Shown: piece after piece, positions 6,025-32,167 of the stretch
Layout: every line of letters starts with the position of its first letter
How positions within the stretch are numbered: position 1 is the stretch's first letter
NCBI GenBank assembly: GCA_012515635.1
Contig: JAAYXZ010000019.1
Span: 1 to 40,741, forward strand
Reading direction: 5' to 3'
DNA length: 40,741 nucleotides
Source of the DNA: Elusimicrobiota bacterium
GTDB taxonomy: Bacteria > Ratteibacteria > UBA8468 > B48-G9 > JAFGKM01
The notes under the pieces: model-generated
Seen by the model: only the letters and a program-made list of their open reading frames with translations
Told to the model about the DNA's origin: nothing
The model's database searches: none
Program-made: the position numbers and the translations under genes

Positions 6025-6029
6025 GACAA

Positions 6030-18602: not shown

Positions 18603-18631
18603 TTGACACAGATGTTTTTATTTGGTATGAT
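18603..18631 (+). promoter_or_regulatory. sigma70-type promoter P1 (TTGACA-17-TATGAT)
   Basis: Perfect -35 hexamer, 17-nt spacer and a 5/6 match at -10, within the AT-rich 192-bp intergenic region upstream of the hydrogenase cluster. Confidence 0.55.
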
Positions 18632-18650
18632 TAATCCAATTCAAAAAAAA

Positions 18651-18679
18651 TTGACAAACATCAAAAACAGTTTTATTCT
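18651..18679 (+). promoter_or_regulatory. sigma70-type promoter P2 (TTGACA-17-TATTCT)
   Basis: A second perfect -35 with 17-nt spacing, 48 nt downstream of P1. Confidence 0.45.
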
Positions 18680-18703
18680 GTTACAAATTTTTTTAAAGGA
18701 CTT

Positions 18704-18719
18704 TGTGAACAAAATCACA
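18704..18719 (+). promoter_or_regulatory. CRP/FNR-family-type operator candidate TGTGAACAAAATCACA
   Basis: Perfect TGTGA-N6-TCACA inverted repeat that ends 1 nt before the ATG at 18721. Confidence 0.4.
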
Positions 18720-18720
18720 A

Positions 18721-19740
18721 ATGGATATACTATACATAACAAAACAGGATTGGGACAATTTTATTCAAGGGAAGGCGGAGAGTGTTGATATCTTCGCTCC
18801 TTTTGAACAGGACGGTAGATTGCTTTACGGGAAGGTCTCGCCTGAGAATAAACAAGAGATTGTCTATAACAGAGTACGGACTGTGGAGCCGCTTAAGATG
18901 TTTTTTGTTCCGCTTAAGGAGAGAGTTGTGCCTGATGCGCAGGAGATTCCGGAGAGAGTTATTATGGGGGTGACTAACTGCGATATGAGCGGGCTTAAGA
19001 TTCTTGATAAGGTGTTCCGTGACGGTGAATATAAAGCCCCTAACTATGCGGAGCGCAGAGCAAAGACGCTCATTATAAGCGCAGATTGTCTTTCGCCCTA
19101 TCCTTCCTGTTTTTGTGAAATTGTGGGGACGCATCCATACTCCGAAGAGGGGTTTGATTTGAATATATCTCTGCTTGGGGATGGTGTTCTTGTAGATGTA
19201 GGGTCTGAAAAGGGGCGTTCTTTCATAGGGGGCGACCAGAAATTTTTTCAGGCAAGCAAGGAACAGATAGACCAGAGAGAGAACAACAGGCAAAAGACAT
19301 CTGAAAAGATAAGAGAGGCGAACAGGGAGTTTGACCTTACGGATATTAGGAAGAGGATGAGAGGGGCGTACCATACAGAGATTTGGAGAATGCCTAAGGA
19401 TATAGAAAATTGTGTGCAATGCGGGAGTTGCACAAATACTTGTCCAACATGTGTCTGTTTTTTACTTGAAGACACAGGGGAGCAGGGGCAGACGACGAAA
19501 GGCAAGGTTTGGGATAGTTGTCTTTTTCCCGGGTATGCGCGTATGGCTGCGGGGGCTTCCCCAAGACCTACGCTTTATGACAGATATGCAAACCGATTGC
19601 TCTGTAAATACTGGTATATGGTGGAACATTTCGGATTGTTTGGTTGCACAGGATGCGGAAGATGTATTGCCGGGTGTGCCGGTAAGATTGACAAGAGAAA
19701 AGTTCTTACAGAGGTGTTAAGAGAGAGGCAGCAGATATAA
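18721..19740 (+). CDS. HydB/AsrA-like iron-sulfur subunit (2x[4Fe-4S])
   Basis: CVQCGSCTNTCPTC and CTGCGRCIAGC ferredoxin motifs. Its size and its pairing with the following FAD/NAD subunit resemble sulfhydrogenase beta or anaerobic sulfite reductase A. Confidence 0.7.
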   Translation: MDILYITKQDWDNFIQGKAESVDIFAPFEQDGRLLYGKVSPENKQEIVYNRVRTVEPLKMFFVPLKERVVPDAQEIPERVIMGVTNCDMSGLKILDKVFRDGEYKAPNYAERRAKTLIISADCLSPYPSCFCEIVGTHPYSEEGFDLNISLLGDGVLVDVGSEKGRSFIGGDQKFFQASKEQIDQRENNRQKTSEKIREANREFDLTDIRKRMRGAYHTEIWRMPKDIENCVQCGSCTNTCPTCVCFLLEDTGEQGQTTKGKVWDSCLFPGYARMAAGASPRPTLYDRYANRLLCKYWYMVEHFGLFGCTGCGRCIAGCAGKIDKRKVLTEVLRERQQI

Positions 19741-19744
19741 TAAA

Positions 19745-20575
19745 ATGGATAAAAATATATATAAACCGATAAGATGTGAGGTAAAGGAAGTTATTACGGA
19801 ATCGCCGACAATAAAAACTGTTGTTCTTAAACCGGAAGAAGAGTTTTCTTTTCTTGCGGGACAGTTTGCGTTACTGACGGTGCATGGGGTGGGAGAGGCG
19901 CCGTTTACCCCGTCATCTTCGCCTTATGACAAGGAAAAACTTGAATTTACCGTGATGAAGACGGGGAGAGTGACAGATGCAATACATAACCTTAAACCGG
20001 GGGATATCGTGGGTGTCCGCGGACCGTATGGCAAACCATATCCTCTGGACCTTTATAAGGGGAAAGAGGTTCTTCTCGTAGGTGGCGGAGTGGGGCTTGC
20101 TCCTATCAGGGCTTTGTTTTTGGCTTTGATGGAGACGGCGGATAAGTATAAAAGGGTTGTCTTTTGCTGTGGAGCGAAGACCCCTCAGGATTACATATAT
20201 AAAGACCAGATTTTTGATAAGTGGCAGAATCTTTGCGAGCAAAACCCGTTATGTTTCAGGATAACCGTGGATAAGAAGGATGAACAATGGAGATATGACG
20301 AGGGGGTAGTGACAAAAGCGTTAGATGGTCTTGATGTTGATATAAGCAACTCTGTTGCGGTAGTTTGCGGGCCGCCAATAATGATGAAGTTCACAACACT
20401 AAAACTTTTGGAGTTGGGTTATAAAGACCATCAGATATACCTTTCAATGGAAAGGAAGATGTATTGCGCTGTAGGGCAATGCAGGCATTGCCTTATAGGC
20501 GATTTGTATGTTTGCAAGGATGGTCCTGTCTTTACCTATGATGTGATTAAAGGTAAGCCGAATATATGGGTATAA
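19745..20575 (+). CDS. HydG/AsrB/PyrK-like FAD/NAD(P)-binding subunit with C-terminal [2Fe-2S]
   Basis: FNR-like fold: PFTPSS (flavin), LLVGGGVGLAPI (NAD(P) binding), and C-terminal CAVGQCRHC...C. Confidence 0.75.
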   Translation: MDKNIYKPIRCEVKEVITESPTIKTVVLKPEEEFSFLAGQFALLTVHGVGEAPFTPSSSPYDKEKLEFTVMKTGRVTDAIHNLKPGDIVGVRGPYGKPYPLDLYKGKEVLLVGGGVGLAPIRALFLALMETADKYKRVVFCCGAKTPQDYIYKDQIFDKWQNLCEQNPLCFRITVDKKDEQWRYDEGVVTKALDGLDVDISNSVAVVCGPPIMMKFTTLKLLELGYKDHQIYLSMERKMYCAVGQCRHCLIGDLYVCKDGPVFTYDVIKGKPNIWV

Positions 20576-20664
20576 AAAAAGATAGGAAGATGTTGCGGGA
20601 AAATTACAGGTTAAAGGAGTTTTCCTAATAGCGTTATCTATAAAAATTGCGATGAGTTAACACT

Positions 20665-21156
20665 ATGAAAAAACTATTTATTGATTATGATAAGTTTTTG
20701 AGTATTCCCGATGAGGAACTTCAGTGCAGTTATAAGATGCACCCGACAAACAACGGAATACTTACTTTAAGAGAAGAGATTGCTTTTCTCTTTGCCTGTA
20801 GAAGGTGCGAGGATTATCCCTGCGTGAATAGTTGCCCTACAGGCGCGCTTAAGAAAGAAGAAGGTCTTATTAAACGTTCTAATGTTGTCTGCATCTCTTG
20901 CAAGACCTGCTCCCTTGCCTGTCCTTTCGGAACCATACTGCAGGAGTTGTTGCCGTATCTTGTGAGCAGATGCGATATCTGTATAGGGCGGTTAAGGGAA
21001 GGGGAAGAACCTCTTTGCGTCCGCACATGTAAAAACGGGGCAGTAAAGTATCTGGATGAAGATGAGATTAAGGATAAAACAAATATCTATACTATTGGGG
21101 ATCGTATAGTGGTCAGGGTCTTTAACTGGCTAAAAGAATACGGGATAAAAAAATGA
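20665..21156 (+). CDS. HycB/HyfA-like polyferredoxin electron-transfer subunit
   Basis: CRRCEDYPCVNSCP, CISCKTCSLACP, and CDIC....CVRTC. It overlaps the next gene by 4 nt. Confidence 0.75.
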   Translation: MKKLFIDYDKFLSIPDEELQCSYKMHPTNNGILTLREEIAFLFACRRCEDYPCVNSCPTGALKKEEGLIKRSNVVCISCKTCSLACPFGTILQELLPYLVSRCDICIGRLREGEEPLCVRTCKNGAVKYLDEDEIKDKTNIYTIGDRIVVRVFNWLKEYGIKK

Positions 21157-22082
21157 AAATTTTTTATATACTCTTGTATTTTGTTGCGGCGCTTCTGTCG
21201 TTCAGCATTTATGGAATGCTTGCGATGTGGGTGGACAGAAAAGTTACCGCGCGAATACATTTTAGGGTGGGGCCTCCATGGTATCAGAACTTTGTGGATT
21301 TCATAAAACTTACAGGTAAAGAGGTCCTGATACCTGAGAAGGCGAATGTGCTTATGTTTGTTTCGGCTCCTGTGTTGGGGGTGATTGCTGCAGCGGTAGC
21401 GGGGACAACAATACTTCTGGTTTTGCAAAACAATATCAGTTTTGCCGCAGATGCAATACTTGTTATTTATCTTCTGACGATTCCTTCATTGGCTGTTATA
21501 CTTGGCGGCAGCGCTTCAGGTAATGTTTTGGCGTCGGTAGGCATTAGCAGGGAGATGAAACTGTTGCTTGGCTACGAACTGCCGTTTGTATGCGCTCTGA
21601 TTATTGCGGCAGTGAAAAGCGGTTCAACGACATCTTTGGGAGAGATTATACAATTCCAGCAGCAAAACGGGAAACTCATCGGCTCTCTTTCAGGTGTTAT
21701 TGGGTTTGGTCTTGGCGTTTTGGCATTGCAGGGCAAAATCGGTTTTGTGCCGTTTGACCTTGCTGAAGCGGAAGGGGAGTTGGCAGGCGGCTCATTTATT
21801 GAGTATTCGGGCATACTGCTTGGCTTGTATAAACTTACTAAGGCAATTTTGCTTGTTGTGGGGCCGTTGTTTCTTATCTCTTTGTATATGGGCGGGATAA
21901 ACTTTTCTTCTGTAGCGGGGGTTATTGCGGGATTATTGAAATATTTTGTTATACTGGTGATTTTTATTCTTATAAAAAACACCAATCCCCGCCTTAGGAT
22001 AGACCAGGCGTTGAAATTGTTTTGGGGATGGCTTACTTTGTTCGGCATAATAGGGATATTGTTGGCTTTAGCAGGATGGTGA
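21153..22082 (+). CDS. NuoH/HycD/MbhM-like membrane subunit
   Basis: Polytopic 309 aa. Motifs MWVDRKV.ARIHFR.GP and FVPFDLAEAEGEL are hallmarks of the NuoH family. Confidence 0.85.
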   Translation: MKIFYILLYFVAALLSFSIYGMLAMWVDRKVTARIHFRVGPPWYQNFVDFIKLTGKEVLIPEKANVLMFVSAPVLGVIAAAVAGTTILLVLQNNISFAADAILVIYLLTIPSLAVILGGSASGNVLASVGISREMKLLLGYELPFVCALIIAAVKSGSTTSLGEIIQFQQQNGKLIGSLSGVIGFGLGVLALQGKIGFVPFDLAEAEGELAGGSFIEYSGILLGLYKLTKAILLVVGPLFLISLYMGGINFSSVAGVIAGLLKYFVILVIFILIKNTNPRLRIDQALKLFWGWLTLFGIIGILLALAGW

Positions 22083-22086
22083 AAAA

Positions 22087-22503
22087 ATGAACTTGAAAAC
22101 GAAAGCGTTAAAAAAATCATTGTGGGTGTACCATATGTCGGGAGGGTCTTGCAATAATTGCGATATAGAGATACTGGATTGCCTGACGCCTAAATTTGAC
22201 CTTGAACGGTTTGGCATAGTGCTTGTAGGAAGCCCGAGGCATGCGGATGTGTTGCTATGCACGGGTATAGTTAATAAAAAATGTGTAGAGAGGGTGAAAG
22301 AGGTTTATGAGCAGACAGCCAAGCCCTGTGTGGTGGTGGCAATCGGCGCTTGCGCTTGTTCGGGGGGTATGTTCAGGGATAGTTATGAGATGGGCGGACC
22401 GTTGAATAAAATTATACCGGTGGATATCTATATTCCAGGGTGTCCGCCTAAACCGGAGGCAATGATTGCAGGGATAGTTAAAGTTCTGGAGAAACTGAAA
22501 TGA
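22087..22503 (+). CDS. group-4 [NiFe] hydrogenase small subunit (NuoB/HycG/MbhJ-like)
   Basis: Cys ligands for the proximal cluster: GSCNNCDIE, GACACSGG, and PGCPPKPE. Confidence 0.9.
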   Translation: MNLKTKALKKSLWVYHMSGGSCNNCDIEILDCLTPKFDLERFGIVLVGSPRHADVLLCTGIVNKKCVERVKEVYEQTAKPCVVVAIGACACSGGMFRDSYEMGGPLNKIIPVDIYIPGCPPKPEAMIAGIVKVLEKLK

Positions 22504-22937
22504 AAGATATCATAGGAAGGATTCAGAGTAAACTGGGAGATAGAGGAAAAGATATAAAAGAACAGACCAACAATCGGGTGTATGTCTCTGTGGATAGAAA
22601 AAATATAAAAGAATGCGCAAAGATATTGTTTGAAGATATGGATGCCAGATATATTGTGGCTTCAGGTATGGAGAACTTTGATAGTTTTGAGATTCTGTAC
22701 CATTTCGGGTTTGACAAGGAAAGCGCTATTGTTTCGCTCAGAGTGTATCTTGACAAGGATAATCCTGAGATAGATACATTGACGGATATTATTCCGGGTA
22801 TCTCCTATATTGAGCGCGAGATGTGGGAATTGTTGGGGATAAACTTTAAAGGGCATCCGAATATGAAACATTTTCTGTTAGGAGATGACTGGGAAAAGGG
22901 GAATTATCCGTTAAGGAAGGATAAATATGAAAAATAA
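22500..22937 (+). CDS. NuoC/MbhK-like 30-kDa-type subunit
   Basis: 145 aa. IEREMWELLGI.F.GHP is the NuoC signature. It is a separate gene here, not fused to the large subunit. Confidence 0.85.
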   Translation: MKDIIGRIQSKLGDRGKDIKEQTNNRVYVSVDRKNIKECAKILFEDMDARYIVASGMENFDSFEILYHFGFDKESAIVSLRVYLDKDNPEIDTLTDIIPGISYIEREMWELLGINFKGHPNMKHFLLGDDWEKGNYPLRKDKYEK

Positions 22938-24123
22938 CAAAAAAACGGTTATTGTTCCGATAGGTCCCTACCATCCGCTTCTGGAGGAGCCGGAGTTTTT
23001 TGCTCTGTATTGCGACGGGGAAAAGATAGTGGATGTGGAGTGGCAGGCGGGCTATAATCATCGAGGGATAGAAAAACTGTCGGAGAGTAAACACTGGGAC
23101 CAGGTAACATTTTTGGTTGAAAGGATTTGCGGAATATGTTCCACTTCTCATCCTTTTGCATATTGTAATACCATAGAAAACTTGATAGGAATGACTATTC
23201 CTGAAAGGGCAAAGTACATAAGAAGCATTATCGGGGAGTTGGAGCGCATACACAGTCATCTTTTGTGGATGGGGCTTGCAGGACATTTCCTCGGTTATAA
23301 TACGGTGTTTATGTGGGCTTGGAAATATAGGGAGCCGGTATTGGACCTCTTTGAAATTATCAGCGGGAACAGAAACCATTATGCGATGTTCAAGATAGGC
23401 GGTGTAAGAAGAAATATAGAGAATGAGGATATTCCCAAGATAAGAAAGATGCTTGCTGAAATTAAAGGGCAGTTAGAGATGTTGATAGGCGCTGTTCTTG
23501 ATGACCCTGTGCTGACGGCGCGTTTGAAAAATGTGGGAGTCCTTACAAAACAGGATATAAAAAACTTTGGCTCGGTGGGACCTGTTGCAAGGGCAAGCGG
23601 AGTTGATGTGGATGTCAGGCGAGATGAGCCGTATGCGGCATATCCTCTTGTGGAATGGAGCGTTATAACCGCTAAAAACGGGGATGTGCTTGATAAGGCG
23701 GTTGTGCGGCTTTCAGAGTGTCTGGAGGCGGTTAAAATTATAACCCAGTGCCTTGACGCTATTGAAGGAAAGGCGGGGGAGATAGGCGAGGAGGTCAGGA
23801 GAGTGCCTGAAGGCGAAGGGATAGGCAGGCATGAGGCGCCGAGGGGCGAGTGCTTCCATTATATACGAAGTGATGGCGCGAATAGTCCTGTAAGACATAA
23901 GATTCGCGCGCCAAGTTATACAAATGTCCCTACATTCAAGGCGAGTTGTATTGGACAGACCATATCCGATGTCGCTATTATTTTAGCGGGGGTTGACCCT
24001 TGTTATTGCTGTACGGAGAGAGTGGCGGTTTATGATGCGGGAAAAAAGAAAAAACTTTATGATTTTCAGCATCTTGTAGAACTGTCAAAACAGAAGACGG
24101 AGAGGATTAGGAAAGAGATATAA
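22927..24123 (+). CDS. group-4 [NiFe] hydrogenase large (catalytic) subunit (NuoD/HycE/MbhL-like)
   Basis: N-terminal Ni-Fe motif RICGICSTSH and C-terminal DPCYCCTER. A 33-aa tail follows (VAVYDAGKKKKLYDF...), like the cleavable HycE extension. Confidence 0.92.
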   Translation: MKNNKKTVIVPIGPYHPLLEEPEFFALYCDGEKIVDVEWQAGYNHRGIEKLSESKHWDQVTFLVERICGICSTSHPFAYCNTIENLIGMTIPERAKYIRSIIGELERIHSHLLWMGLAGHFLGYNTVFMWAWKYREPVLDLFEIISGNRNHYAMFKIGGVRRNIENEDIPKIRKMLAEIKGQLEMLIGAVLDDPVLTARLKNVGVLTKQDIKNFGSVGPVARASGVDVDVRRDEPYAAYPLVEWSVITAKNGDVLDKAVVRLSECLEAVKIITQCLDAIEGKAGEIGEEVRRVPEGEGIGRHEAPRGECFHYIRSDGANSPVRHKIRAPSYTNVPTFKASCIGQTISDVAIILAGVDPCYCCTERVAVYDAGKKKKLYDFQHLVELSKQKTERIRKEI

Positions 24124-24125
24124 AA

Positions 24126-24743
24126 ATGAAGAAACCGAAGATACGTGAATTGAAAGAGGCGGTAAAAGGGATTTTTTCCAGACCGTATACAACGAAGTTC
24201 CCTTATCAACCGCATACACCGCCCCCGAGGTACAGGGGAAAGCCGGAGTATTATGAAGAAGGGTGTGTCGGTTGCGGGGCATGTTTTCAGGTATGTTCGG
24301 CAAATGCGATTGATATGATAGATAATACAGAAAAGGGCAATCCAATCAGAACCCTTATACAGCATCCGTCAAAGTGTATCTTCTGCAGGGAGTGCGAAAG
24401 AAATTGTATAACAGGCGAGGGGATTAAATTGACCCAAAGGTTTGATATCGCCTATGTAGACGAAGAAGATGTTCTCAGTTCCGTGAAGCATAAACTGATT
24501 ACCTGCCTGTATTGCGGGACGGTTATAGGAACAGAAAAACATCTGCGATGGGTATTGAAGCGTATTGGGAATTTAGGGTTTGCGCAGCCGGTTCTTCTTT
24601 CGCAACTTATGGAAGAACTGCAAGTCAAGACAGAATATGAGGAAAAAGGTGTTCCGCCTATCCAGAGAACGGATATGCTTAAGGTGGTGTGTCCAAAATG
24701 CAGGCGGATTGCTTTTATAAGCGATGAGAAAAAGGAAAAATAG
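24126..24743 (+). CDS. NuoI/HycF-like 2x[4Fe-4S] subunit with Cys-pair C-terminal tail
   Basis: CVGCGACFQVC and CIFCRECERNC. An extra CLYCG...CPKCRR tail resembles E. coli HycF as I recall it. Confidence 0.85.
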   Translation: MKKPKIRELKEAVKGIFSRPYTTKFPYQPHTPPPRYRGKPEYYEEGCVGCGACFQVCSANAIDMIDNTEKGNPIRTLIQHPSKCIFCRECERNCITGEGIKLTQRFDIAYVDEEDVLSSVKHKLITCLYCGTVIGTEKHLRWVLKRIGNLGFAQPVLLSQLMEELQVKTEYEEKGVPPIQRTDMLKVVCPKCRRIAFISDEKKEK

Positions 24744-24748
24744 ATAAA

Positions 24749-26113: not shown

Positions 26114-26139
26114 AGAACAAAGTATCGGGAGGGAGTAAG

Positions 26140-27966
26140 TTGAATATAAATGTATGGTTTCTGCCTGTGGTTATAAGTTTCGGGATAGCCCTTGTCCATA
26201 TTATTTTTAAGAGGGCGGGGAGAAATGTAAGGAGATGGATATCTCTTATAGGGGCTATTGGAGCGCTTGGGGCATGCCTGTATTCAATGTTTATTAATTA
26301 CAATGTCCTTTCCAGCGGGGAGATTCTTGGGCTTGTCTTTGCGGCGCTGATATCTTTCATCGGGCTTTTCAGCATCTCTTATTCTCAGTGGTATAACCCC
26401 GAAGCCAATTTTGTATATGACGGGCTGTTGTTTCTCTTTCTCGGCGGTATGTTTGGGGTGGTGTTGAGCCACTCGCTTATAGCGTTGTATATATACTGGG
26501 AGATAATGACTGTCGCAAGTTTTTTCCTTATTCTCTTTAAAGATACACAAGAGTCAAGAAGGGCTTCACTTAAGTATATTGTAATGACAGGTGTCGGCAG
26601 TATGTTCCTTCTTTTTGGCATATTGGGGGCATGGATGGTGGAACTAAATATTCTGTGGAAACACATCTTCTTTGCCTGTGTTTTGATAGGGACAGGGGTT
26701 AAGATGGGATTGTTCCCTCTGCATACTTGGCTTCCCGATGCATATACGGCCGCTCCCACTCCTGCCTCCGCGATGTTTTCAGGGGTTATGGTCAAGACAG
26801 GGATTTATACGCTTATAAGGTTTTATTTTGCAATATTTCAGCCATCCTGGTCTCTGGGCTGGGATGCGATAATGATGGTGATAGGTGTTATTACGCTTTT
26901 GGGCGGTGTGTTTTTGGCGCTTATCCAGCATGATATAAAGCGGTTGCTTGCATATCACAGCATAAGCCAGATAGGATATATCTTTCTTGGTATTGCCTGC
27001 GGAACTCAGATAGGGCTTGTCGGGGCGCTGTATCATGCGATAAATCACGCAATATTTAAAAGTTTGCTTTTCCTTGGCGCCGGTGTGCTAATTAAGGAGA
27101 CGGGGTCAAGAAACTTAGAGGATTATGGCGGACTTGCAGGTAAATTGCCGTTGACCTTCGGGGTGATGACTGTTGCCGCTCTCTCTATATCGGGAGTGCC
27201 GCCGTTCAATGGGTTTGTGTCAAAATGGATTATATTTCAGGCGTTGCTTGCAAAAAACACAGGATTTTCTGTCTTTGCGCTTGTTGCGGCGTTGTTAGGG
27301 AGTGTGTTGACTCTCGCCTCTTTCATAAAAGTGCTTAATGACTCTTTTATGGGTGTTCGTAAAGCGAAGGTGTCTGTTCCAACGGTAGGAAAATCTCCTT
27401 TTATGAGTATTCCGTTGGTCTTGCTTGCTGTCGGGTGCTTGTTGTTCGGGGTTTTCCCCGGGTTTGTTACGGAGAGGTTTCTGTTTCCATCTATAGGGGA
27501 ATATCTGTTGTTGAATATATCACTGATAAAAATGGCAAGTTTTTATGGATGGTTAGCCATTTGCTTTATAGCGGTAATCTTTATTTTAAGCAGGAGATGG
27601 ATAAAAGGCGTAAGGAAGACAAGTGTTTTTGTGGGCGGTGAAATTCTGTCTGCGGAAGATACCGCTTTTGACGGGGCTCATTTTTACGGAACGGTGAAAG
27701 ATATTGCTCCCTTAAAGAGGTTTTATTCCGCTGAAGTCAGCGGTATGCTTGATATATACCGGAGGGGGTTGCAGTTCCTTCCCCGCATAGGAAAATGTGT
27801 CAGAGCCGCAACGGTTAATGCTGTGAATGCCGTATATGAGAAAGGGAGTGTTTTTCTGAGCAAGTGGGTGGAGCGGTTGAGGTTATTGCAGAACGGATAT
27901 TTAGCGAAATATCTTATCTGGTTTTTTGCAGGGCTTATAATTATTATGGAGGTTATAAGAAGATGA
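26140..27966 (+). CDS. mrpA: NuoL / MrpA N-terminal / HyfB-like antiporter-type subunit with long C-terminal arm (copy 2)
   Basis: TTG start 4 nt after GGGAGGGAG. WLPDAY.AAPTPASA, HSISQIG, and about 120 C-terminal residues that are largely non-TM and end in one TM helix. Confidence 0.8.
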   Translation: MNINVWFLPVVISFGIALVHIIFKRAGRNVRRWISLIGAIGALGACLYSMFINYNVLSSGEILGLVFAALISFIGLFSISYSQWYNPEANFVYDGLLFLFLGGMFGVVLSHSLIALYIYWEIMTVASFFLILFKDTQESRRASLKYIVMTGVGSMFLLFGILGAWMVELNILWKHIFFACVLIGTGVKMGLFPLHTWLPDAYTAAPTPASAMFSGVMVKTGIYTLIRFYFAIFQPSWSLGWDAIMMVIGVITLLGGVFLALIQHDIKRLLAYHSISQIGYIFLGIACGTQIGLVGALYHAINHAIFKSLLFLGAGVLIKETGSRNLEDYGGLAGKLPLTFGVMTVAALSISGVPPFNGFVSKWIIFQALLAKNTGFSVFALVAALLGSVLTLASFIKVLNDSFMGVRKAKVSVPTVGKSPFMSIPLVLLAVGCLLFGVFPGFVTERFLFPSIGEYLLLNISLIKMASFYGWLAICFIAVIFILSRRWIKGVRKTSVFVGGEILSAEDTAFDGAHFYGTVKDIAPLKRFYSAEVSGMLDIYRRGLQFLPRIGKCVRAATVNAVNAVYEKGSVFLSKWVERLRLLQNGYLAKYLIWFFAGLIIIMEVIRR

Positions 27967-28508
27967 TACTCAATCAGTGGCTGTTGGCTGCGCTAATGCT
28001 TCTTATGGCGGCGGGTTGTGTTATTGCTATTACGGCGCGGAGTTTGACTTCTTCTGTTGTCTCTATGGGAACAGCAGGGCTTATATTAAGTATTCTCTTT
28101 TTGCTTTTAGGTGCGCCGGATATAGCGATAGTGCAGGTTTTTGTGGAGATTGTTGCTTTGATAGTTTTGCTTTCAATTATACGGCGGGAGACAAGAGCAG
28201 ATATGACGACTTCAGGGTTATACGGTATATTGACGCTTGCTATTTTTGCTTTGTTATTAATGATATTTTTCATATACGGGAACGATATAGTGCGGCCTTT
28301 GGGCGTGCCTGTTATCACAATGGGGGGAGAGTATCTTGCATCATCGTCTCGTTTGCTGAGCGCTCCCAATGCTGTTACCTCTATTGTTCTGGACTTTAGG
28401 GGTTATGACACATTGGGGGAGGCAACGGTTATCTTTGTCGCTGTGGCAGGGGTTGTTGTCCTTTTACGAAGGAGAGGGAGGAAAGATGAAAAAAAAGGGG
28501 ATGAGTGA
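27963..28508 (+). CDS. MrpA C-terminal-like / MbhD+MbhE-like membrane subunit
   Basis: DUF4040-like N-terminal half (SVVSMG..G...S..F.LLGAPD.A..Q) and an MnhB-type block NAVTSIVLDFRGYDTLGE. ATG at 27963 follows GGAGG and overlaps the upstream stop (ATGA). Confidence 0.75.
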   Translation: MILNQWLLAALMLLMAAGCVIAITARSLTSSVVSMGTAGLILSILFLLLGAPDIAIVQVFVEIVALIVLLSIIRRETRADMTTSGLYGILTLAIFALLLMIFFIYGNDIVRPLGVPVITMGGEYLASSSRLLSAPNAVTSIVLDFRGYDTLGEATVIFVAVAGVVVLLRRRGRKDEKKGDE

Positions 28509-28962
28509 AATAGTTCAAAGTGTGGCGAAAATGGTGTTCCCCTTTATTGTGCTGTATGGTATCTCTCTTATCCTTTATGGGCATATAACGCCGGGCGGCG
28601 GGTTTGCGGGAGGCGTGATTCTTACGGGTGGATTTGTTTTGCTGGTGCTTGCCTTCGGAACAGATTATGCTTTCAGGATTCTGCCTGTTAATGTTGCAAA
28701 AGCGCTTGATAGTATAGGCGCTTTAGGGTTTCTTGCTGTTGCGTTGCTCGGGTTCACAGGTGGTGCGTTCTTTTATAATTTTCTTCCTAAAGGACACATC
28801 TTTCATCTTTGGAGTTCCGGGACTATAATTATCAGCAATATAATGATAGGGTTGAAGGTTGTTGCCGCTCTTTTTATAGCCATAGCCGTTATCTCTAAAG
28901 CGCGGTTGATACGGACCAAAGACGGGTTTCAATATAAGCAAAGCGGGGAGAGAAAACGATGA
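28486..28962 (+). CDS. mrpB: MrpB/MnhB/MbhF-like subunit
   Basis: LYGH.TPGGGFAGG motif. ATG at 28486 lies behind GGGAGG. Confidence 0.8.
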   Translation: MKKKGMSEIVQSVAKMVFPFIVLYGISLILYGHITPGGGFAGGVILTGGFVLLVLAFGTDYAFRILPVNVAKALDSIGALGFLAVALLGFTGGAFFYNFLPKGHIFHLWSSGTIIISNIMIGLKVVAALFIAIAVISKARLIRTKDGFQYKQSGERKR

Positions 28963-29309
28963 TTTTATATATTCTTATTGCGCTGATGTTTTTCATAGGG
29001 TTGTATGGGATGATTGCGAAGAAGAACATTATAAAAATTATTATAGGTATGAATATTGTAGGGTATGCATCCAATCTGCTGTTTGTTCTGCTGGGGTATA
29101 AATGGGACGGTATAGCGCCCATTCTGACAGAGGATATGTCGTTTGCCTATTTTCTGGAAAAAGCTGTTGACCCGTTGCCGCAAGCGCTTGTTCTTACATC
29201 AATAGTTATAGACCTTGCGTTTGTGGCGTTTCTTGCAGCGCTTGCCATACGGCTTTTTGAAAAATACGGGACATTTGATATAGATAAGATAAGGAGATTA
29301 AAGGGATGA
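28959..29309 (+). CDS. mrpC: MrpC/MnhC/NuoK-like subunit
   Basis: 116 aa with three TM segments. GLYG....KN.IK...G.NI pattern. Confidence 0.8.
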   Translation: MILYILIALMFFIGLYGMIAKKNIIKIIIGMNIVGYASNLLFVLLGYKWDGIAPILTEDMSFAYFLEKAVDPLPQALVLTSIVIDLAFVAFLAALAIRLFEKYGTFDIDKIRRLKG

Positions 29310-30790
29310 ACCATCTTATTACTCTTACTATGGCGATATATTTGGGAGGGGCATTTCTCATCTCCCTTTTATGGAGAGAAAATGAAACCGTTGCAGGAGC
29401 AGCGGCTATCTCTTTTGTGGCGTTATCCGCGATAACATCCGTTCTTTTAGGTATAGAGGTGTTTACTAACGGAAGCATTCTGTATTTTGCAGGCGGATGG
29501 GAGAGACCGTTGGGTATTGCTCTTATGCTTGACCCTCTATCCGCGCTCTTTCTGATAATGACAAATGTTATTGCTTTGCTTGTAACGATTTACTCTGCGG
29601 TCTATATGAAAAAATATACATGGACACCTTATTTTTATGTCCTGTTTCTAATTATGCTTGCAGGTATGAACGGCATACTTATAAGTATGGATATATTCAA
29701 TATCTATGTCTTTCTTGAAGTTGCTTCGGTAGCGTCATTTATGCTTGTTGCCTTTGGGCTGAGGGCGGAGGAACTTGAGGCCGCAATAAAATATACCGTG
29801 ATGAGTTTTATTGCGACTACAATGATACTTTTTGCTATTGCGCTCATTTACGGGTTTACCGGGACTTTGAATATAGCCCGGTTTATGGATGCGTCGGCAG
29901 GGCTTACACCTGTGCATCTGTGGTTTCTTGCGGGGCTTCTGCTTGCCGGATTTGCGCTGAAAGCCGCTTTGGTTCCTTTTCATTCATGGCTTCCCGATGC
30001 TCACTCTATGGCCCCTGCTCCCGTCTCTGCCGTGCTTTCAGGGATGTTTGTGAAGGTTGCGGGGCTTTATGTGATAATACGCGTTACCGCAAATATCTTT
30101 ACGAACCTGCCCCAGATACGTATATTGCTTTTGTTGTTCGGCGCGCTCTCAATGGTCTTTGGGGGACTGATGGCATACGGGCAAAAAAACATAAAGCGCC
30201 TTTATGCGTATTCCACCATAAGCCAGATTGGGTATTGTGCTGTGGGGTTGGGTATCGGCGGATATTTGGGGAGTTTGGGGGTTCTTATGCACTTTGTTGC
30301 CCATGCCTTCTCCAAAGCCCTTTTGTTTTTGAATATAGGAGCGGTGGAGTATGTGCGCGGGACAGTGGAATCAGATGACTTGAAAGGGTTAAACGACACC
30401 ATGCCTGTTACCACTCTTTTTGGAAGCACCGGTATGTTAGGCATAGCAGGGGTGCCGCCTATGGGTAATTTTTGGAGTAAACTTATTATTATTATAGCGG
30501 CGGTTAAGGCCGGCTATACAGGCATAGCGGTACTGTGTATTGTTGTGGCTGTAATTACTTTGGGGTATTTTCTTAAATTGCAACGGACGGTATATTGCAA
30601 TTTAACAGAGTCCCCTGTAAAAAAAGAGGCGCCGAAGACATTGCTGGTTCCTATGGGTATTCTGGCATTTATGGTCTTTGTGTCGGGGGTATTGCTGGTC
30701 CCGGGGATAAGAGAACATACGTTGGATAAAGCTGTTGCTGTGATGGAAAACTTTTCCTATGTAGATATTACGATAGGGGATAACAGATGA
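29306..30790 (+). CDS. mrpD: MrpD/MnhD/NuoM-N-like antiporter-type subunit (copy 3)
   Basis: 494 aa with WLPDAHS.APAPVSA.LSG and YSTISQIGY. Confidence 0.85.
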   Translation: MNHLITLTMAIYLGGAFLISLLWRENETVAGAAAISFVALSAITSVLLGIEVFTNGSILYFAGGWERPLGIALMLDPLSALFLIMTNVIALLVTIYSAVYMKKYTWTPYFYVLFLIMLAGMNGILISMDIFNIYVFLEVASVASFMLVAFGLRAEELEAAIKYTVMSFIATTMILFAIALIYGFTGTLNIARFMDASAGLTPVHLWFLAGLLLAGFALKAALVPFHSWLPDAHSMAPAPVSAVLSGMFVKVAGLYVIIRVTANIFTNLPQIRILLLLFGALSMVFGGLMAYGQKNIKRLYAYSTISQIGYCAVGLGIGGYLGSLGVLMHFVAHAFSKALLFLNIGAVEYVRGTVESDDLKGLNDTMPVTTLFGSTGMLGIAGVPPMGNFWSKLIIIIAAVKAGYTGIAVLCIVVAVITLGYFLKLQRTVYCNLTESPVKKEAPKTLLVPMGILAFMVFVSGVLLVPGIREHTLDKAVAVMENFSYVDITIGDNR

Positions 30791-31272
30791 ATCAACTTTT
30801 AGTTTTTATTTTGTTGTTCGGAATCTGGAAATTAATGACATGGAGTAATGACTTGGGGAGTTATATTGCAGGCATATTGTCCGCTCTCTTTATTACGCTC
30901 CTTTATGGGAAAGAGTTTCCCTATCATCCTAAACATACTTTTCAGATAAGAAGATACATTATTTTCATAAAGTTTCTTTTTGTTTTCCTGTATCAGATGA
31001 TAAAAGCAAACTTTGTGATGGCATACCGTATTTTAAGTCCCGGACCGCCTATCAAGCCGGGAGTGGTAAAGATATCTTTGCGTCTCAAATCGCCGTTGGG
31101 AAGGTTGATATTGGCGAATGCCATTACATTGGCGCCGGGAACATTCACATTAGACATAACAGAGGATACTCTTCTTATTCACTGGATATATGTAGGGACT
31201 ACAGACCCTGTAGAGGCGGAAGAGATGATATGCGGAAACTTACAAAGCATATTGAAGGAGGTCTTTGAATGA
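30787..31272 (+). CDS. mrpE: MrpE/MnhE-like subunit
   Basis: 161 aa. Its position after MrpD and the block AN.ITL.PGT..LD fit MnhE. Confidence 0.75.
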   Translation: MNQLLVFILLFGIWKLMTWSNDLGSYIAGILSALFITLLYGKEFPYHPKHTFQIRRYIIFIKFLFVFLYQMIKANFVMAYRILSPGPPIKPGVVKISLRLKSPLGRLILANAITLAPGTFTLDITEDTLLIHWIYVGTTDPVEAEEMICGNLQSILKEVFE

Positions 31273-31523
31273 TTCTTTTATTTTCGTTTCTAACCTTGTG
31301 TGTGGCGATGTGCGTATATAGGATATTCCGGGGTCCAAGGGCGGCGGACAGGATGGTGGGTATAGATATTCTCGGTATTATTATGATTATTTTTTGTGTG
31401 TTGCTATCGTTGTCTACCGGTTCCGAATGGTATATGAGTATAGCCATTGCTTGGGCTATTATAGGGTTTGTAAGCACTTTAACTCTGGCAAAATTTTTGG
31501 AGGGGAGGAACTTAAATGATTGA
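31269..31523 (+). CDS. mrpF: MrpF/MnhF-like subunit
   Basis: 84 aa with YRI.RGP...DR..G.D motif. Confidence 0.8.
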   Translation: MILLFSFLTLCVAMCVYRIFRGPRAADRMVGIDILGIIMIIFCVLLSLSTGSEWYMSIAIAWAIIGFVSTLTLAKFLEGRNLND

Positions 31524-31869
31524 TCTCCTTTTTTATGTTCTTATGTCCATCGGGCTGTGTTTTGTTTTTCTTGGTTGTGTGGGGCTTCTGAGAATGCCTG
31601 ATGTGTATTGCCGTCTGCAGGCATCTACAAAATGCGTAACACTTGGGACTGGCAGCATTCTCTTAGCCGCGCTGGCCAAAACAGGGTTTTCTGCTATAGG
31701 GATGAAGGCGTTGATATCCTTGGTCTTTTTATTTCTTAACTCACCTACCTCGGCGCATGCGCTTGCAAAGGCGGCGGATATTTCAGGAATCAAGTTTTGG
31801 GAAAAGCCGGGCGATGAAAAAATATATCCGGCAAAGCCGCGGCCTACTGTGGATAGCGATATAGAATAA
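31516..31869 (+). CDS. mrpG: MrpG/MnhG-like subunit
   Basis: G..GLLR.PD.Y.RL.ASTK..TLG motif. Confidence 0.8.
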   Translation: MIDLLFYVLMSIGLCFVFLGCVGLLRMPDVYCRLQASTKCVTLGTGSILLAALAKTGFSAIGMKALISLVFLFLNSPTSAHALAKAADISGIKFWEKPGDEKIYPAKPRPTVDSDIE

Positions 31870-31909: not shown

Positions 31910-32167
31910 ATGCATGAACTTTCAGTGGTCCAAAATCTGTTAAAAATACTTGAAAAACTACGCAAAGAAAGAGCGATAAAGTCCTTTCTTAAGATAAACC
32001 TTACTGTAAATCCTTTCAGTTGTCTTGACGAAGACAATATTAATTTTACTTTTTCTGCTCTTACAAAAGGGCAGGATGCGTATAAAGATGCGAAGATTTA
32101 TATCAGGAGAACTGATAACCCGTCATCTAAGGAGTTTATCCTTGATGATGTAGAGATAGAGGTGTGA
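31910..32167 (+). CDS. hypA: HypA-like hydrogenase nickel-insertion protein lacking the zinc-finger domain
   Basis: MHELS N-terminal Ni-binding motif and a HypA-like alpha/beta core (..L.V.P.S....D...F.F). Only 85 aa and no CxxC pairs. Confidence 0.65.
   Translation: MHELSVVQNLLKILEKLRKERAIKSFLKINLTVNPFSCLDEDNINFTFSALTKGQDAYKDAKIYIRRTDNPSSKEFILDDVEIEV

What the first reader, a model, noticed from the sequence alone, without database searches (positions are those of the whole stretch)
18721..31869. Chimeric 17-gene membrane-bound [NiFe] hydrogenase: NAD(P)H/FAD-type input module + FHL-like catalytic core + full Mrp antiporter
What the sequence shows: 17 co-oriented genes. From 21153 to 31869 the junctions are overlaps of 4, 8, 11 or 23 nt or gaps of 2-5 nt, plus one 26-nt gap. 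This implies one translationally coupled unit.

The large subunit keeps both Ni-Fe Cys pairs (RICGICSTSH and DPCYCCTER), so it is a true hydrogenase rather than an Nuo- or Mbs-like derivative.

In characterised Mrp-linked group-4 enzymes, the input module is formate dehydrogenase, CO dehydrogenase or free ferredoxin (Thermococcus Mfh/Mch, Pyrococcus Mbh). Here the only candidate input is different. It is a HydB/HydG (AsrA/AsrB)-like pair with FNR-type flavin and NAD(P) motifs (PFTPSS, GGGVGLAP), a [2Fe-2S] site and two [4Fe-4S] motifs, followed by a HycB-like ferredoxin.

Inference: this is a pyridine-nucleotide-linked, ion-translocating hydrogenase. H2 production from NAD(P)H would have to be driven by the ion gradient. 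Alternatively, H2-driven NAD(P)+ reduction would be coupled to ion export. I am not aware of this combination being biochemically characterised.
Basis: partly seen in the sequence, partly recalled or inferred. Interest (0 to 1): 0.78.

Follow-up and report, generated by a model that had tools for sequence, protein, structure and literature searches.

The report
Hun-type NiFe hydrogenase–Mrp operon
This is a real 17-gene operon for a membrane-bound hydrogen-producing enzyme of the already named but never purified "Hun" family, and its flavin subunit and NADH-sensor control site suggest, without proving, that it runs on NAD(P)H rather than ferredoxin.

Summary
Seventeen co-oriented, mostly overlapping genes at 18721-31869 encode five modules:
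- a sulfhydrogenase beta/gamma-like (AsrA/AsrB-like) FeS + FAD/NAD(P) pair;
- a HycB-like ferredoxin;
- a group-4 [NiFe] core with intact Ni-Fe cysteines;
- a HycF-like subunit;
- a full Mrp module.

The architecture is not new. It matches, gene by gene, the 16-subunit "Hun" supercomplex of Glass et al. (bioRxiv 10.1101/536078), including the diagnostic CGIC/CYCC motifs. Hun was classed by HydDB as group 4g and reported in Atribacteria, Omnitrophica, Bacteroidetes, Elusimicrobia and Kosmotoga. That paper predicts ferredoxin as the donor, and I found no biochemical study of Hun.

What I add:
- The HunAB–hydrogenase linkage held in all 58 related loci with enough upstream DNA.
- All FNR-type flavin/NAD(P) motifs of HunB are invariant or nearly so.
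- A Rex (NADH/NAD+ sensor) operator abuts the hunA start codon here and recurs upstream of hunA in 42 of 59 loci; 40 loci carry an adjacent Rex gene.

The window carries a rare arrangement, with a third antiporter-like subunit and a relocated HycF-like gene.

Verdict: a new member of a known, uncharacterised family. NAD(P)H coupling is plausible but unproven.

The parts
18603..18679 (+). Two sigma-70-like promoter candidates (TTGACA-17-TATGAT with TG, 18603-18631; TTGACA-17-TATTCT, 18651-18679) in the 192-nt intergenic region upstream of hunA
   Evidence: These are the two best-scoring + strand sites in 16.5-34.2 kb, but the scan as a whole is not enriched over shuffles (39 found, 40.4 expected). 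Suggestive only.
18703..18720 (.). Rex (NADH/NAD+ sensing repressor) operator-like palindrome TTGTGAACAAAATCACAA, abutting the hunA ATG
   Evidence: It has one mismatch to the consensus TTGTGAANNNNTTCACAA and is the only match in the 40.7-kb window. Only 1 of 100 shuffles gave any match at <=1 mismatch. A site sits at about the same position (-18 to -24) in the eight closest-relative loci L001-L003, L005-L007, L009 and L012, and 42 of 59 loci have a site upstream of hunA. The consensus is quoted from Ravcheev 2012 in PMC5317091 and PMC6391272.
18721..19740 (+). hunA: sulfhydrogenase-beta / AsrA-like FeS protein (339 aa, Fer4_22; 16 Cys)
   Evidence: Pfam. NCBIfam ShyB, HydB and AsrA hits are all below their cutoffs. 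Full-length match to P. furiosus SHI beta 9nez_B, E 2.7e-41. Of its 16 Cys, 15 are invariant and one is 98% conserved in 60 sequences.
19745..20575 (+). hunB: sulfhydrogenase-gamma / AsrB / PyrK-like flavoprotein (276 aa; FAD, NAD(P), [2Fe-2S])
   Evidence: Pfam. Match to 9nez_C, E 1.1e-51. The motif GEAPFTPSSS and the four [2Fe-2S] Cys are invariant, and GGGxGxAP and CGPP are nearly so (the CGPP Cys 92%), in 66 sequences. It is 52-85% identical across phyla.
20576..20664 (+). 89-nt hunB-hunC spacer
   Evidence: No promoter-like or terminator-like site. A weak hairpin, z = -1.4, with no U-tract. The same junction is 12 nt in L001 and a 10-nt overlap in L005.
20665..21156 (+). hunC: HycB-like poly-[4Fe-4S] ferredoxin (163 aa, Fer4_11)
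   Evidence: Pfam. Best PDB matches are HDCR HycB3/HycB4 and FHL HycB. Eight Cys are invariant; the Cys set of a third cluster is kept in only 38% of orthologs (one of its four Cys in 73%), including the window.
21153..22082 (+). hunD: NuoH/MbhM/HycD-like membrane subunit
   Evidence: PF00146, E 9e-58; same Pfam as hunD in Table S5.
22087..22503 (+). hunE: hydrogenase small subunit (NuoB-like, one [4Fe-4S])
   Evidence: PF01058; NCBIfam NuoB family.
22500..22937 (+). hunF: NuoC/MbhK-like subunit
   Evidence: PF00329.
22927..24123 (+). hunG: [NiFe] large subunit (398 aa) with L1 RICGICSTSH, L2 DPCYCCTER and a C-terminal extension after the L2 motif
   Evidence: Pfam. Ni-Fe Cys invariant. Scores 296 bits to Mbh 6cfw_L and 293 bits to HycE 7z0s_E. 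66% identical over the full length, with the same motifs, to the large subunit of a hun-type operon in a MAG from the Hun study's own data set. That the extension is cleaved during maturation is my inference from textbook HycE processing and the HycI domain encoded downstream.
24126..24743 (+). hunP-like: HycF/NuoI-like 2x[4Fe-4S] subunit with 4 extra conserved Cys; here placed directly after hunG
   Evidence: Pfam. NCBIfam FHL iron-sulfur subunit. Best PDB match is 7z0s_F HycF. The eight cluster Cys and C127/C130 are invariant; C189/C192 are 98% conserved. Among loci that reach mrpG (2 against 51), this position was seen only in L001 and L004; truncated L002 and L003 show it too.
24749..26113 (+). 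Extra antiporter-like subunit (454 aa, Proton_antipo_M), absent from the 16-gene Hun layout
   Evidence: Pfam. NCBIfam HyfD / MrpA / NuoL-like. A third antiporter-like gene is present only in L001, L004 and L057, against two such genes in 55 loci.
26140..27966 (+). hunH: MrpA-N / NuoL / HyfB-like antiporter-like subunit (608 aa, TTG start)
27963..28508 (+). hunI: fused MbhD + MbhE-like subunit (181 aa)
   Evidence: start codon chosen at the ATG that overlaps the hunH stop by 4 nt.
28486..28962 (+). hunJ: MnhB-like subunit
28959..29309 (+). hunK: MrpC/NuoK-like subunit
29306..30790 (+). hunL: MrpD/NuoN-like antiporter-like subunit (494 aa)
30787..31272 (+). hunM: MrpE
31269..31523 (+). hunN: MrpF
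31516..31869 (+). hunO: MrpG
31910..32167 (+). Short HypA (85 aa) that lacks the zinc domain; nickel-insertion accessory protein
   Evidence: Matches HypA model positions 1-67 of 112. Conserved downstream of hun in L001, L004, L005 and L008.
32172..33308 (+). HypB (CobW-type GTPase) fused to the HycI C-terminal endopeptidase
7756..10080 (-). HypF maturase (774 aa), elsewhere in the window

Best explanation
The locus is an Omnitrophota-type member of the Hun family, a membrane-bound group-4 (HydDB 4g-like) [NiFe] hydrogenase fused to an Mrp antiporter module.

Proposed wiring (inferred from homology): the HunB flavoprotein (FAD, NAD(P)-binding fold, [2Fe-2S]) exchanges a hydride with NAD(P)H. 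Electrons then pass through the FeS clusters of HunA, the HycB-like HunC, the HycF-like subunit and the small subunit to the Ni-Fe site of HunG, where protons are reduced to H2.

This chemistry happens at the interface with the NuoH-like subunit. It is coupled to ion movement through the Mrp-type membrane arm, which here has three antiporter-like subunits.

Transcription starts upstream of hunA and is gated by Rex, so the operon is switched on when NADH/NAD+ is high.

The most likely physiological role is disposal of excess NAD(P)H as H2. The Na+/H+ gradient assists the reaction when H2 is too high for it to run alone, and the reaction can reverse when H2 is abundant.

Shown: gene content, homology, conserved cofactor motifs, conserved synteny, the Rex site.
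Inferred: complex assembly, NAD(P)H as substrate, direction, ion coupling.
For: Family identity:
- Pfam content matches hunA-hunP of Table S5 in Glass et al. one for one.
- The large subunit has the CGIC/CYCC motifs called diagnostic for HunG.
- It is 66% identical to the large subunit of a hun-type operon in MAG GCA_009619095, which belongs to that study's data set.

Linkage:
- hunB and hunC lie upstream of the large subunit in 58 of 58 loci with at least 4.6 kb of upstream DNA.
- hunA is within range in 57 and just beyond an insertion in the 58th, L009.
- These loci come from Omnitrophota, Bacteroidales, Cloacimonadota and Desantisbacteria.
- Three sampled HunA homologs at 39-42% identity (a Clostridia-like MAG, Elusimicrobia, Actinobacteria) are also in hun operons.

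NAD(P)H module:
- HunA and HunB align over their full length to the beta and gamma subunits of P. furiosus sulfhydrogenase I, 9nez (E 2.7e-41 and 1.1e-51). NCBIfam names that enzyme NADPH-dependent.
- In HunB, GEAPFTPSSS and the four [2Fe-2S] Cys are invariant, and GGGxGxAP and CGPP are nearly so, in 66 sequences.
- HunB is the third most conserved subunit, after the large and small subunits.
- A conserved hydride-transfer flavin domain has no obvious purpose if one-electron ferredoxin were the only partner (my inference).

Rex control:
- The only Rex-operator match in the window abuts the hunA start codon.
- Such sites lie upstream of hunA in 42 of 59 loci, at 1.81 per kb against 0.043 per kb overall.
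- A Rex gene sits next to hunA in 40 loci. It is listed as hunR in Table S5.

Context: in Ace Lake Omnitrophota MAGs, each MAG for which one is listed has a single hydrogenase type: 3b, 3d, A3 or Mrp-linked 4g. The two 4g-bearing genera also encode Rnf.
Against: - No biochemical data on any Hun enzyme turned up in my searches.
- The only published functional prediction is ferredoxin-driven H2 evolution.
- Rex also represses the ferredoxin-dependent membrane-bound [NiFe] hydrogenase and PFOR of Caldicellulosiruptor bescii. Rex control therefore does not prove that NADH is the substrate.
- NADH to H2 is endergonic under standard conditions (E0' -320 against -414 mV, about +18 kJ/mol; textbook values). 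The enzyme would have to consume the ion gradient or depend on very low H2.
- NADH versus NADPH specificity cannot be read from the sequence.
- No multimer model or structure shows HunAB docked on the hydrogenase.
- No Rex gene lies in this window.
Confidence: 0.5

Rival explanations
1. Ferredoxin-driven, Mbh-like proton reduction, which is the published Hun model. Reduced ferredoxin donates to HunABC or to the HycF-like subunit. H2 evolution drives H+/Na+ export through the Mrp module. The HunB flavin/NAD(P) domain is only a wire or a secondary site.
For: - This is the prediction of Glass et al. and the default reading of Mrp-linked 4g enzymes in Omnitrophota, Cloacimonadota and Auribacterota.
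- The large subunit scores 296 bits to P. furiosus Mbh.
- Rex also regulates ferredoxin-dependent hydrogenases.
- The poly-ferredoxin-like HunA and HunC offer many possible docking clusters.
Against: - Mbh needs no such module, since ferredoxin docks on MbhN.
- Here a three-protein module is conserved in every locus examined.
- Its flavoprotein keeps every FNR-type NAD(P)/FAD motif.
- That flavoprotein is homologous to the gamma subunit of sulfhydrogenase I, which NCBIfam names NADPH-dependent.
- The published claim rests on the statement that AsrAB transfer electrons from ferredoxin. It was not tested.
Confidence: 0.27
2. An energy-conserving uptake enzyme. H2 reduces NAD(P)+ through HunAB while ions are exported. 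It would supply reductant to acetogenic or other H2-consuming metabolism.
For: - H2 to NAD+ is exergonic at high H2 (textbook potentials).
- In L084 the hun operon lies next to an FdhA-like gene and Wood-Ljungdahl genes.
- Elusimicrobia that carry 'Mbh-Mrp-oxidoreductase' enzymes are predicted acetogens.
- Ca. Gorgyraea (Omnitrophota) has the Mrp-linked 4g enzyme together with the Wood-Ljungdahl pathway.
Against: - Rex derepresses when NADH/NAD+ is high. That is the opposite of when an NAD+-reducing enzyme would be needed.
- At environmental H2 levels of a few Pa the reaction has almost no driving force to pump ions.
- Most hosts are described as fermenters.
Confidence: 0.13
3. HunAB is an electron exit to a sulfur or other acceptor (sulfhydrogenase-like or Asr-like), or an independent enzyme that merely shares the operon.
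For: The closest named families are sulfhydrogenase beta/gamma and anaerobic sulfite reductase AsrA/AsrB.
Against: - No AsrC/siroheme subunit is present in the operon or among the window ORFs I scanned.
- All equivalog scores are far below their cutoffs.
- The strict, translationally coupled linkage to the hydrogenase across phyla argues for one complex.
Confidence: 0.05

Closest known systems
Hun [NiFe] hydrogenase-Na+/H+ antiporter supercomplex (Glass et al., bioRxiv 10.1101/536078; HydDB group 4g by web tool)
   Same: - Same Pfam content gene by gene, hunA to hunP.
- Same CGIC/CYCC large-subunit motifs.
- The same phyla are reported, including Omnitrophica.
- 66% large-subunit identity to a hun-type operon in a MAG of that study's data set.
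- A Rex-family regulator gene is associated with the operon (hunR).
   Different: - 17 genes rather than 16, because of an extra antiporter-like subunit at 24749-26113.
- The HycF-like hunP homolog sits directly after hunG instead of last.
- There is no adjacent hunR, but a Rex operator abuts hunA.
- The published donor is ferredoxin. I favour NAD(P)H.
Pyrococcus furiosus Mbh (group 4d, PDB 6CFW)
   Same: - A true Ni-Fe large subunit (296 bits to 6cfw_L).
- NuoB/C/H/I-like core.
- MbhD/E, MnhB and MrpC-G-like membrane subunits.
   Different: - Mbh takes ferredoxin directly and has no HunABC module.
- The FeS subunit here is closer to HycF than to MbhN (64 against 43 bits).
- Mbh has one antiporter-like subunit (my recollection of the structure), against three here.
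E. coli formate hydrogenlyase FHL-1 (group 4a, PDB 7Z0S) and Mrp-linked formate/CO enzymes of Thermococcus (group 4b)
   Same: - HycB-like wire, HycF-like subunit and a HycE-like large subunit (293 bits).
- A HycI protease domain is encoded downstream.
- As in group 4b, a dedicated soluble-substrate module is combined with Mrp.
   Different: - No molybdopterin formate dehydrogenase or CODH in the operon or among the window ORFs I scanned.
- The input module is a flavoprotein/FeS pair.
- NuoC is not fused to the large subunit.
Pyrococcus furiosus sulfhydrogenase I beta/gamma subunits (group 3b, PDB 9NEZ) and AsrA/AsrB
   Same: HunA and HunB are full-length homologs with conserved Cys ligands and FNR-type FAD/NAD(P) motifs.
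   Different: - They are attached to a membrane-bound group-4 enzyme, not to a soluble group-3 dimer.
- Scores are far below the NCBIfam equivalog cutoffs (176 against 690; 185 against 650; AsrB 214 against 289).
- There is no AsrC.
Respiratory complex I (Nuo)
   Same: Same logic: a pyridine-nucleotide flavoprotein input, an FeS wire, a NuoB/D/H coupling site, and here three antiporter-like subunits.
   Different: - The input module is unrelated to NuoEFG.
- The acceptor is H+ at a Ni-Fe site instead of quinone.
- The membrane arm is Mrp-type.

Membership tests
Hun supercomplex (Glass et al.) | Large subunit HunG with L1/L2 motifs CGIC ... CYCC | tested here: met
   RICGICSTSH and DPCYCCTER are present and invariant in homologs.
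Hun supercomplex (Glass et al.) | hunA (PF17179), hunB (PF00175 + PF00970 + PF10418) and hunC (PF13247) at the 5' end of the hydrogenase operon | tested here: met
   One search compared with Table S5.
Hun supercomplex (Glass et al.) | hunD-hunP Pfam set: PF00146, PF01058, PF00329, PF00346/PF00374, PF00361, PF13244, PF04039, PF00420, PF00361/PF00662, PF01899, PF04066, PF03334, PF12838 | tested here: met
   All are present (Table S5).
Hun supercomplex (Glass et al.) | 16 genes in the order A-P, with the Fer4_7 subunit (hunP) last | tested here: not met
   There are 17 genes. The Fer4_7 gene follows hunG and an extra PF00361 gene follows it. The canonical order holds in 51 related loci. Among loci that reach mrpG, the window's order occurs only in L001 and L004. 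This is a variation in arrangement, not in content.
Hun supercomplex (Glass et al.) | Direct sequence relationship to the study's hun operons | tested here: met
   The large subunit is 66% identical and HunB 53% identical to the operon in L084 (GCA_009619095, MAG 1244-F3-H4-B3 of that study). The reference protein RXG63129 itself could not be fetched.
HydDB [NiFe] group 4g | Classification of the large subunit by the HydDB classifier or its sequence similarity network | not testable with these tools
   HydDB is not available here. The literature classes HunG, and the Mrp-linked enzymes of Ca. Stygibacter, Omnitrophota and Auribacterota, as 4g. The Ca. Stygibacter australis homolog P0113 is 67% identical to the window protein.
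Group 4d Mbh (ferredoxin-coupled, Mrp-linked) | Ferredoxin as direct donor with no dedicated input module | tested here: not met
   A conserved HunABC module precedes the core. The donor itself is not testable here.
Group 4a/4b formate- or CO-linked hydrogenases | A formate dehydrogenase (molybdopterin) or CODH catalytic subunit in the complex | tested here: not met
   No such domain was found in the operon or in the other window ORFs I scanned. HycB-like and HycF-like subunits are present.
Group 3b sulfhydrogenase beta/gamma (HydB/HydG, ShyB/ShyC) | NCBIfam equivalog score above the cutoff, and a partner group-3 large/small subunit pair | tested here: not met
   Scores against cutoffs: ShyB 176.5 / 690, HydB 153.5 / 750, HydG 185 / 650, ShyC 181.8 / 600. 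The partner large subunit is group 4. Homology itself is clear.
Anaerobic sulfite reductase AsrABC | An AsrC siroheme catalytic subunit, and AsrA/AsrB equivalog scores above the cutoffs | tested here: not met
   AsrA 102.5 / 323 and AsrB 213.7 / 288.6. No AsrC-like gene is in the operon.
Rex regulon | An 18-bp palindrome matching TTGTGAANNNNTTCACAA in the promoter region, conserved in orthologous loci | tested here: met
   Binding by Rex was not tested.

The most novel reading that the evidence does not exclude
Hun enzymes are Rex-controlled NAD(P)H:proton oxidoreductases. They use the Na+/H+ gradient, built for example by Rnf, to push H2 evolution from NAD(P)H. That would be a chemiosmotic alternative to flavin-based electron confurcation, and the first pyridine-nucleotide-linked, ion-coupled group-4 hydrogenase. 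Nearly 600 candidate relatives of the large subunit were found among species-representative genomes, and cultured Bacteroidales and Kosmotoga are available for testing.
Probability: 0.4. Interest if true: 0.8.

Novelty: new member of a known kind. Interest (0 to 1): 0.5.

Why it matters
How fermenters and syntrophs get rid of NADH as H2 is usually explained by soluble confurcating or NADH-dependent [FeFe] hydrogenases. Every characterised group-4 membrane hydrogenase uses ferredoxin, formate or CO.

If Hun really couples NAD(P)H/H2 chemistry to an ion gradient, it would be a hydrogen-evolving analogue of complex I. It would also change the energy budgets drawn for Omnitrophota, Atribacteria, Cloacimonadota and sediment Bacteroidales, where it is currently drawn as an Mbh-type ferredoxin sink.

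The question is directly testable, because cultured carriers exist. For this window specifically, the finding is not a discovery of a new system. It adds one more member, in a rare 17-gene arrangement, to a family already named.

Tried and rejected
- **Promoter/terminator scan.** Overall counts equal the shuffle expectation. I use only the position of the two best sites, and as weak support.
- **Hairpin in the 89-nt gap.** z = -1.4 and no U-tract, so I do not read it as a terminator.
- **Molybdopterin gene between hunB and hunC.** Glass et al. and the Saganbacteria paper report one. In my 18 loci with an insert it is a roughly 155-aa cNMP-binding protein in the three of 17 Bacteroidales loci whose ORF I scanned. 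In L002 it is a 23S-rRNA-IVP gene. The window has no insert.
- **Other conserved input partners.** I looked upstream and downstream in 49 and 41 loci. Only Rex, hyp genes, HycI and a 137-aa ORF of unknown family recur. No formate dehydrogenase, PFOR or CODH recurs.
- **Rex gene in the window.** None found.
- **Literature on Hun biochemistry.** Searches on Kosmotoga, Atribacter laminatus and AsrAB + Mbh returned nothing beyond the papers cited. The journal version of Glass et al. is not held.
- **NADH versus NADPH.** A basic residue after the second beta-strand (GAKT) aligns with TAR of SHI gamma. I judged this too weak to call specificity.

Full report
**1. Observation**

The 17 + strand genes are real.
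From hunA onward the junctions are +4, +89, -4, +4, -4, -11, +2, +5, +26, -4, -23, -4, -4, -4, -4 and -8 nt.
- Pfam assigns every gene. In order they are:
  - a Fer4_22 protein;
  - a FAD_binding_6 / NAD_binding_1 / DHODB_Fe-S protein;
  - a Fer4_11 ferredoxin;
  - NuoH-, NuoB-, NuoC- and NuoD/NiFe-large-subunit-like proteins;
  - a NuoI/HycF-like protein;
  - three Proton_antipo_M proteins;
  - a fused MbhD + MbhE protein, then MnhB, NuoK/MrpC, MrpE, MrpF and MrpG.
- The large subunit has both Cys pairs (RICGICSTSH, DPCYCCTER). They are invariant in an alignment with ten homologs from different phyla.
- Maturation genes follow the operon: a short HypA and a HypB-HycI fusion. HypF lies elsewhere in the window.
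- Public assemblies from at least three sequencing runs carry the identical locus with the same gene calls.
- The closest named relatives of the large subunit are Omnitrophica/Omnitrophota MAGs, at 80-85% identity.

**2. Is the HydB/HydG-like pair really part of the hydrogenase?**

Yes, by every test available here.
- A scan of species-representative genomes with large-subunit motifs found 597 stretches encoding a relative. I kept the best 80 loci.
- tblastn with all window proteins shows the order hunA-hunB-hunC-NuoH-small subunit-NuoC-large subunit in essentially every locus that reaches far enough upstream.
- Counted strictly, hunB and hunC are present in 58 of 58 loci. hunA is within range in 57, and in the 58th (L009) it lies just beyond an insertion.
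- The hosts are Omnitrophota, many Bacteroidales (including the isolate Labilibacter sediminis CG51), Cloacimonadota and Desantisbacteria.
- In the reverse direction, three HunA homologs at only 39-42% identity all sit in the same operon type. They come from a Clostridia-like subsurface MAG, Elusimicrobia and Actinobacteria.
- The window's 89-nt hunB-hunC gap is local. It is 12 nt in L001 and a 10-nt overlap in L005. It holds no promoter-like or terminator-like site and only a weak hairpin.

**3. What the parts are**

- HunA and HunB are full-length homologs of the beta and gamma subunits of Pyrococcus furiosus sulfhydrogenase I, PDB 9NEZ. E-values are 2.7e-41 and 1.1e-51, with aligned Cys motifs.
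- NCBIfam ranks ShyB/HydB/AsrA for HunA, and the hydrogenase gamma subunit, AsrB, HydG and ShyC for HunB. All scores are far below the curated cutoffs. The pair is therefore a distinct branch, not a member of those equivalog families.
- Across 60-66 sequences:
  - HunA: 15 of its 16 Cys are invariant and one is 98% conserved.
  - HunB: GEAPFTPSSS and the four [2Fe-2S] Cys are invariant. GGGxGxAP and CGPP are nearly so.
- HunB is 52-85% identical across phyla. That makes it third in conservation, after the large and small subunits.
- HunC resembles the HycB proteins of HDCR and FHL.
- The FeS subunit after the large subunit is closest to E. coli HycF, including a C-terminal Cys pair.
- The large subunit scores equally to Mbh (296 bits) and HycE (293 bits).

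**4. Already known**

The literature search shows that the architecture is published.
- Glass et al. (bioRxiv 10.1101/536078) name a 16-subunit Hun supercomplex. HunAB are AsrA/AsrB-like. HunG is classed as HydDB group 4g but described as distant from other 4g enzymes, with diagnostic CGIC/CYCC motifs. HunH-O are Mrp-like and HunP is a Fer4 protein.
- They report it in Atribacteria, Firmicutes, Omnitrophica, Elusimicrobia and Bacteroidetes MAGs and in Kosmotoga isolates.
- Their Table S5 lists the Pfam families of hunA-hunP, and these match the window gene for gene.
- One of my loci, L084, belongs to a MAG of that very study. Its large subunit is 66% identical to the window's and has the same motifs, and HunB is 53% identical.
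- Related notes exist elsewhere:
  - Saganbacteria: an 'enigmatic' group-4 enzyme with Mrp, cooF, asrA and asrB.
  - Elusimicrobia: an 'Mbh-Mrp-oxidoreductase type' whose oxidoreductase has unknown function.
  - Omnitrophota, Cloacimonadota and Auribacterota: Mrp-linked group 4g enzymes, assumed ferredoxin-coupled.
- None of these reports biochemistry. Glass et al. predict ferredoxin as donor and do not mention NADPH at all.
It is therefore met only for the assignment, not for a demonstrated donor.

**5. New evidence on the donor question**

- An 18-bp palindrome, TTGTGAACAAAATCACAA, lies at 18703-18720, directly against the hunA ATG. It has one mismatch to the Rex consensus TTGTGAANNNNTTCACAA. 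The consensus is as quoted from Ravcheev et al. 2012.
- It is the only match in the window. At one mismatch or fewer, only 1 of 100 shuffles gives any match.
- The two best promoter-like sites of the region lie 24-100 nt upstream of it.
- In the related loci, 42 of 59 have a Rex-like site within -400 to +60 of hunA. The density is 1.81 per kb there against 0.043 per kb over all loci. In the eight closest-relative loci (L001-L003, L005-L007, L009, L012) a site sits at -18 to -24, as in the window.
- Forty loci carry a Rex gene (Put_DNA-bind_N + CoA_binding) next to hunA. It is divergent in Bacteroidales and co-oriented in Desantisbacteria and in L084.
- Glass et al. tabulate this gene as hunR, with no hunR listed for Omnitrophica, and do not discuss it.
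- The hun operon is therefore a conserved Rex target. It would be expressed when NADH/NAD+ is high.
- This fits an NADH-relieving, H2-evolving role. It argues against a primarily NAD+-reducing uptake role.
- It is not proof, because Rex also represses the ferredoxin-dependent membrane [NiFe] hydrogenase of C. bescii.

**6. Mechanism and energetics (inference)**

- With textbook potentials (NAD+/NADH -320 mV, H+/H2 -414 mV), NADH to H2 costs about 18 kJ/mol under standard conditions. It becomes feasible only at H2 pressures of a few Pa.
- A soluble NADH-dependent [FeFe] hydrogenase reached 2.2-40.2 Pa (abstract of PMC7311640).
- Coupling to ion influx through the Mrp arm would raise the tolerable H2 pressure by orders of magnitude.
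- With Rnf exporting ions at the expense of ferredoxin, the pair would achieve chemiosmotically what confurcating hydrogenases achieve with a flavin.
- Context fits this. In Ace Lake Omnitrophota MAGs each MAG for which one is listed has a single hydrogenase type (3b, 3d, A3 or Mrp-linked 4g). The two 4g-bearing genera also encode Rnf.
- All three antiporter-like subunits of the window keep the WE/LE and (V/F)K(I/T/V) stretches. I recognise these, from memory of complex I and Mrp work, as the TM5 Glu and TM7 Lys. This is a lead, not a test.

**7. What is particular to this window**

- The HycF-like gene follows the large subunit instead of closing the operon.
- An additional antiporter-like gene (24749-26113) is present, giving 17 genes and three pump-like subunits.
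- Among loci that reach mrpG, only L001 and L004 share the gene position, against 51 with the canonical order. Truncated L002 and L003 show the same placement. Only L001, L004 and L057 have three antiporter-like genes, against two in 55 loci.

**8. Verdict**

Anatomy and linkage are right, and NAD(P)H coupling is plausible and now better supported. It is still unproven, and the architecture is not new.
- I file the locus as a new member, in a rare arrangement, of the known but biochemically uncharacterised Hun family.

Noticed in passing
window 31910-32167 and 32172-33308: HypA is only 85 aa. It keeps the N-terminal MHE nickel motif but lacks the zinc-finger domain (matches HypA model positions 1-67 of 112). 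The next gene fuses a HypB/CobW GTPase to the HycI endopeptidase. Both genes recur downstream of hun in L001, L004, L005 and L008.
   Followed up: partly
L016:7176-7673, L045:7174-7638, L055:6968-7507 (and 14 other Bacteroidales loci): A roughly 155-aa ORF sits between hunB and hunC. The three I scanned are stand-alone cyclic-nucleotide-binding-domain proteins, which hints at an extra regulatory subunit or ligand sensor in the Bacteroidales Hun complexes.
   Followed up: partly
L002:7271-7690 and L085:13615-13983: Genes of the '23S rRNA intervening sequence protein' family (four-helix bundle) are inserted inside hun operons at two different junctions in unrelated phyla.
   Followed up: no
L009:7046-9574: Two unrelated genes (amidase-like and PD40 beta-propeller) are inserted between the small-subunit and NuoC-like genes of an otherwise intact hun operon.
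   Followed up: partly
L084:1-9811: In a Clostridia-like subsurface MAG the hun operon follows, on the same strand, Wood-Ljungdahl genes (RACo, CooC-like, CdhD, pterin-binding protein). Next come an FdhA-like molybdopterin protein, a second Fer4_22 (HunA-like) protein, MobA-like, FdhD and Rex. A HunA paralog may partner a formate dehydrogenase there.
   Followed up: no
window 24126-24743 (residues C127, C130, C189, C192): The HycF/NuoI-like subunit has four extra conserved cysteines beyond its two [4Fe-4S] motifs (two invariant, two at 98%). The first pair aligns with a Cys pair in E. coli HycF. The metal site, if any, is unknown.
   Followed up: partly
window 5722-7790 and 34172-36103 (-): V/A-type ATPase genes are scattered. 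Subunits F and A stand alone and are followed by a convergent hypF. A subunit-I-like gene lies 26 kb away on the other strand. No other subunit was recognised among the window ORFs I scanned.
   Followed up: no
window 16714-18528: The gene upstream of hunA is a KamA-family radical SAM aminomutase-like protein of 604 aa, with an N-terminal extension of about 190 residues that matches no family. It is not conserved next to hun in other loci.
   Followed up: partly
L015:18149-18562 (27 loci): A conserved 137-aa ORF with no Pfam match lies just downstream of hunP in many Bacteroidales loci.
   Followed up: no
window, whole length: GC skew is strongly positive (0.2-0.38) wherever genes are on the + strand and near zero where they are on the - strand. 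The coding strand is therefore markedly G-rich over C.
   Followed up: no
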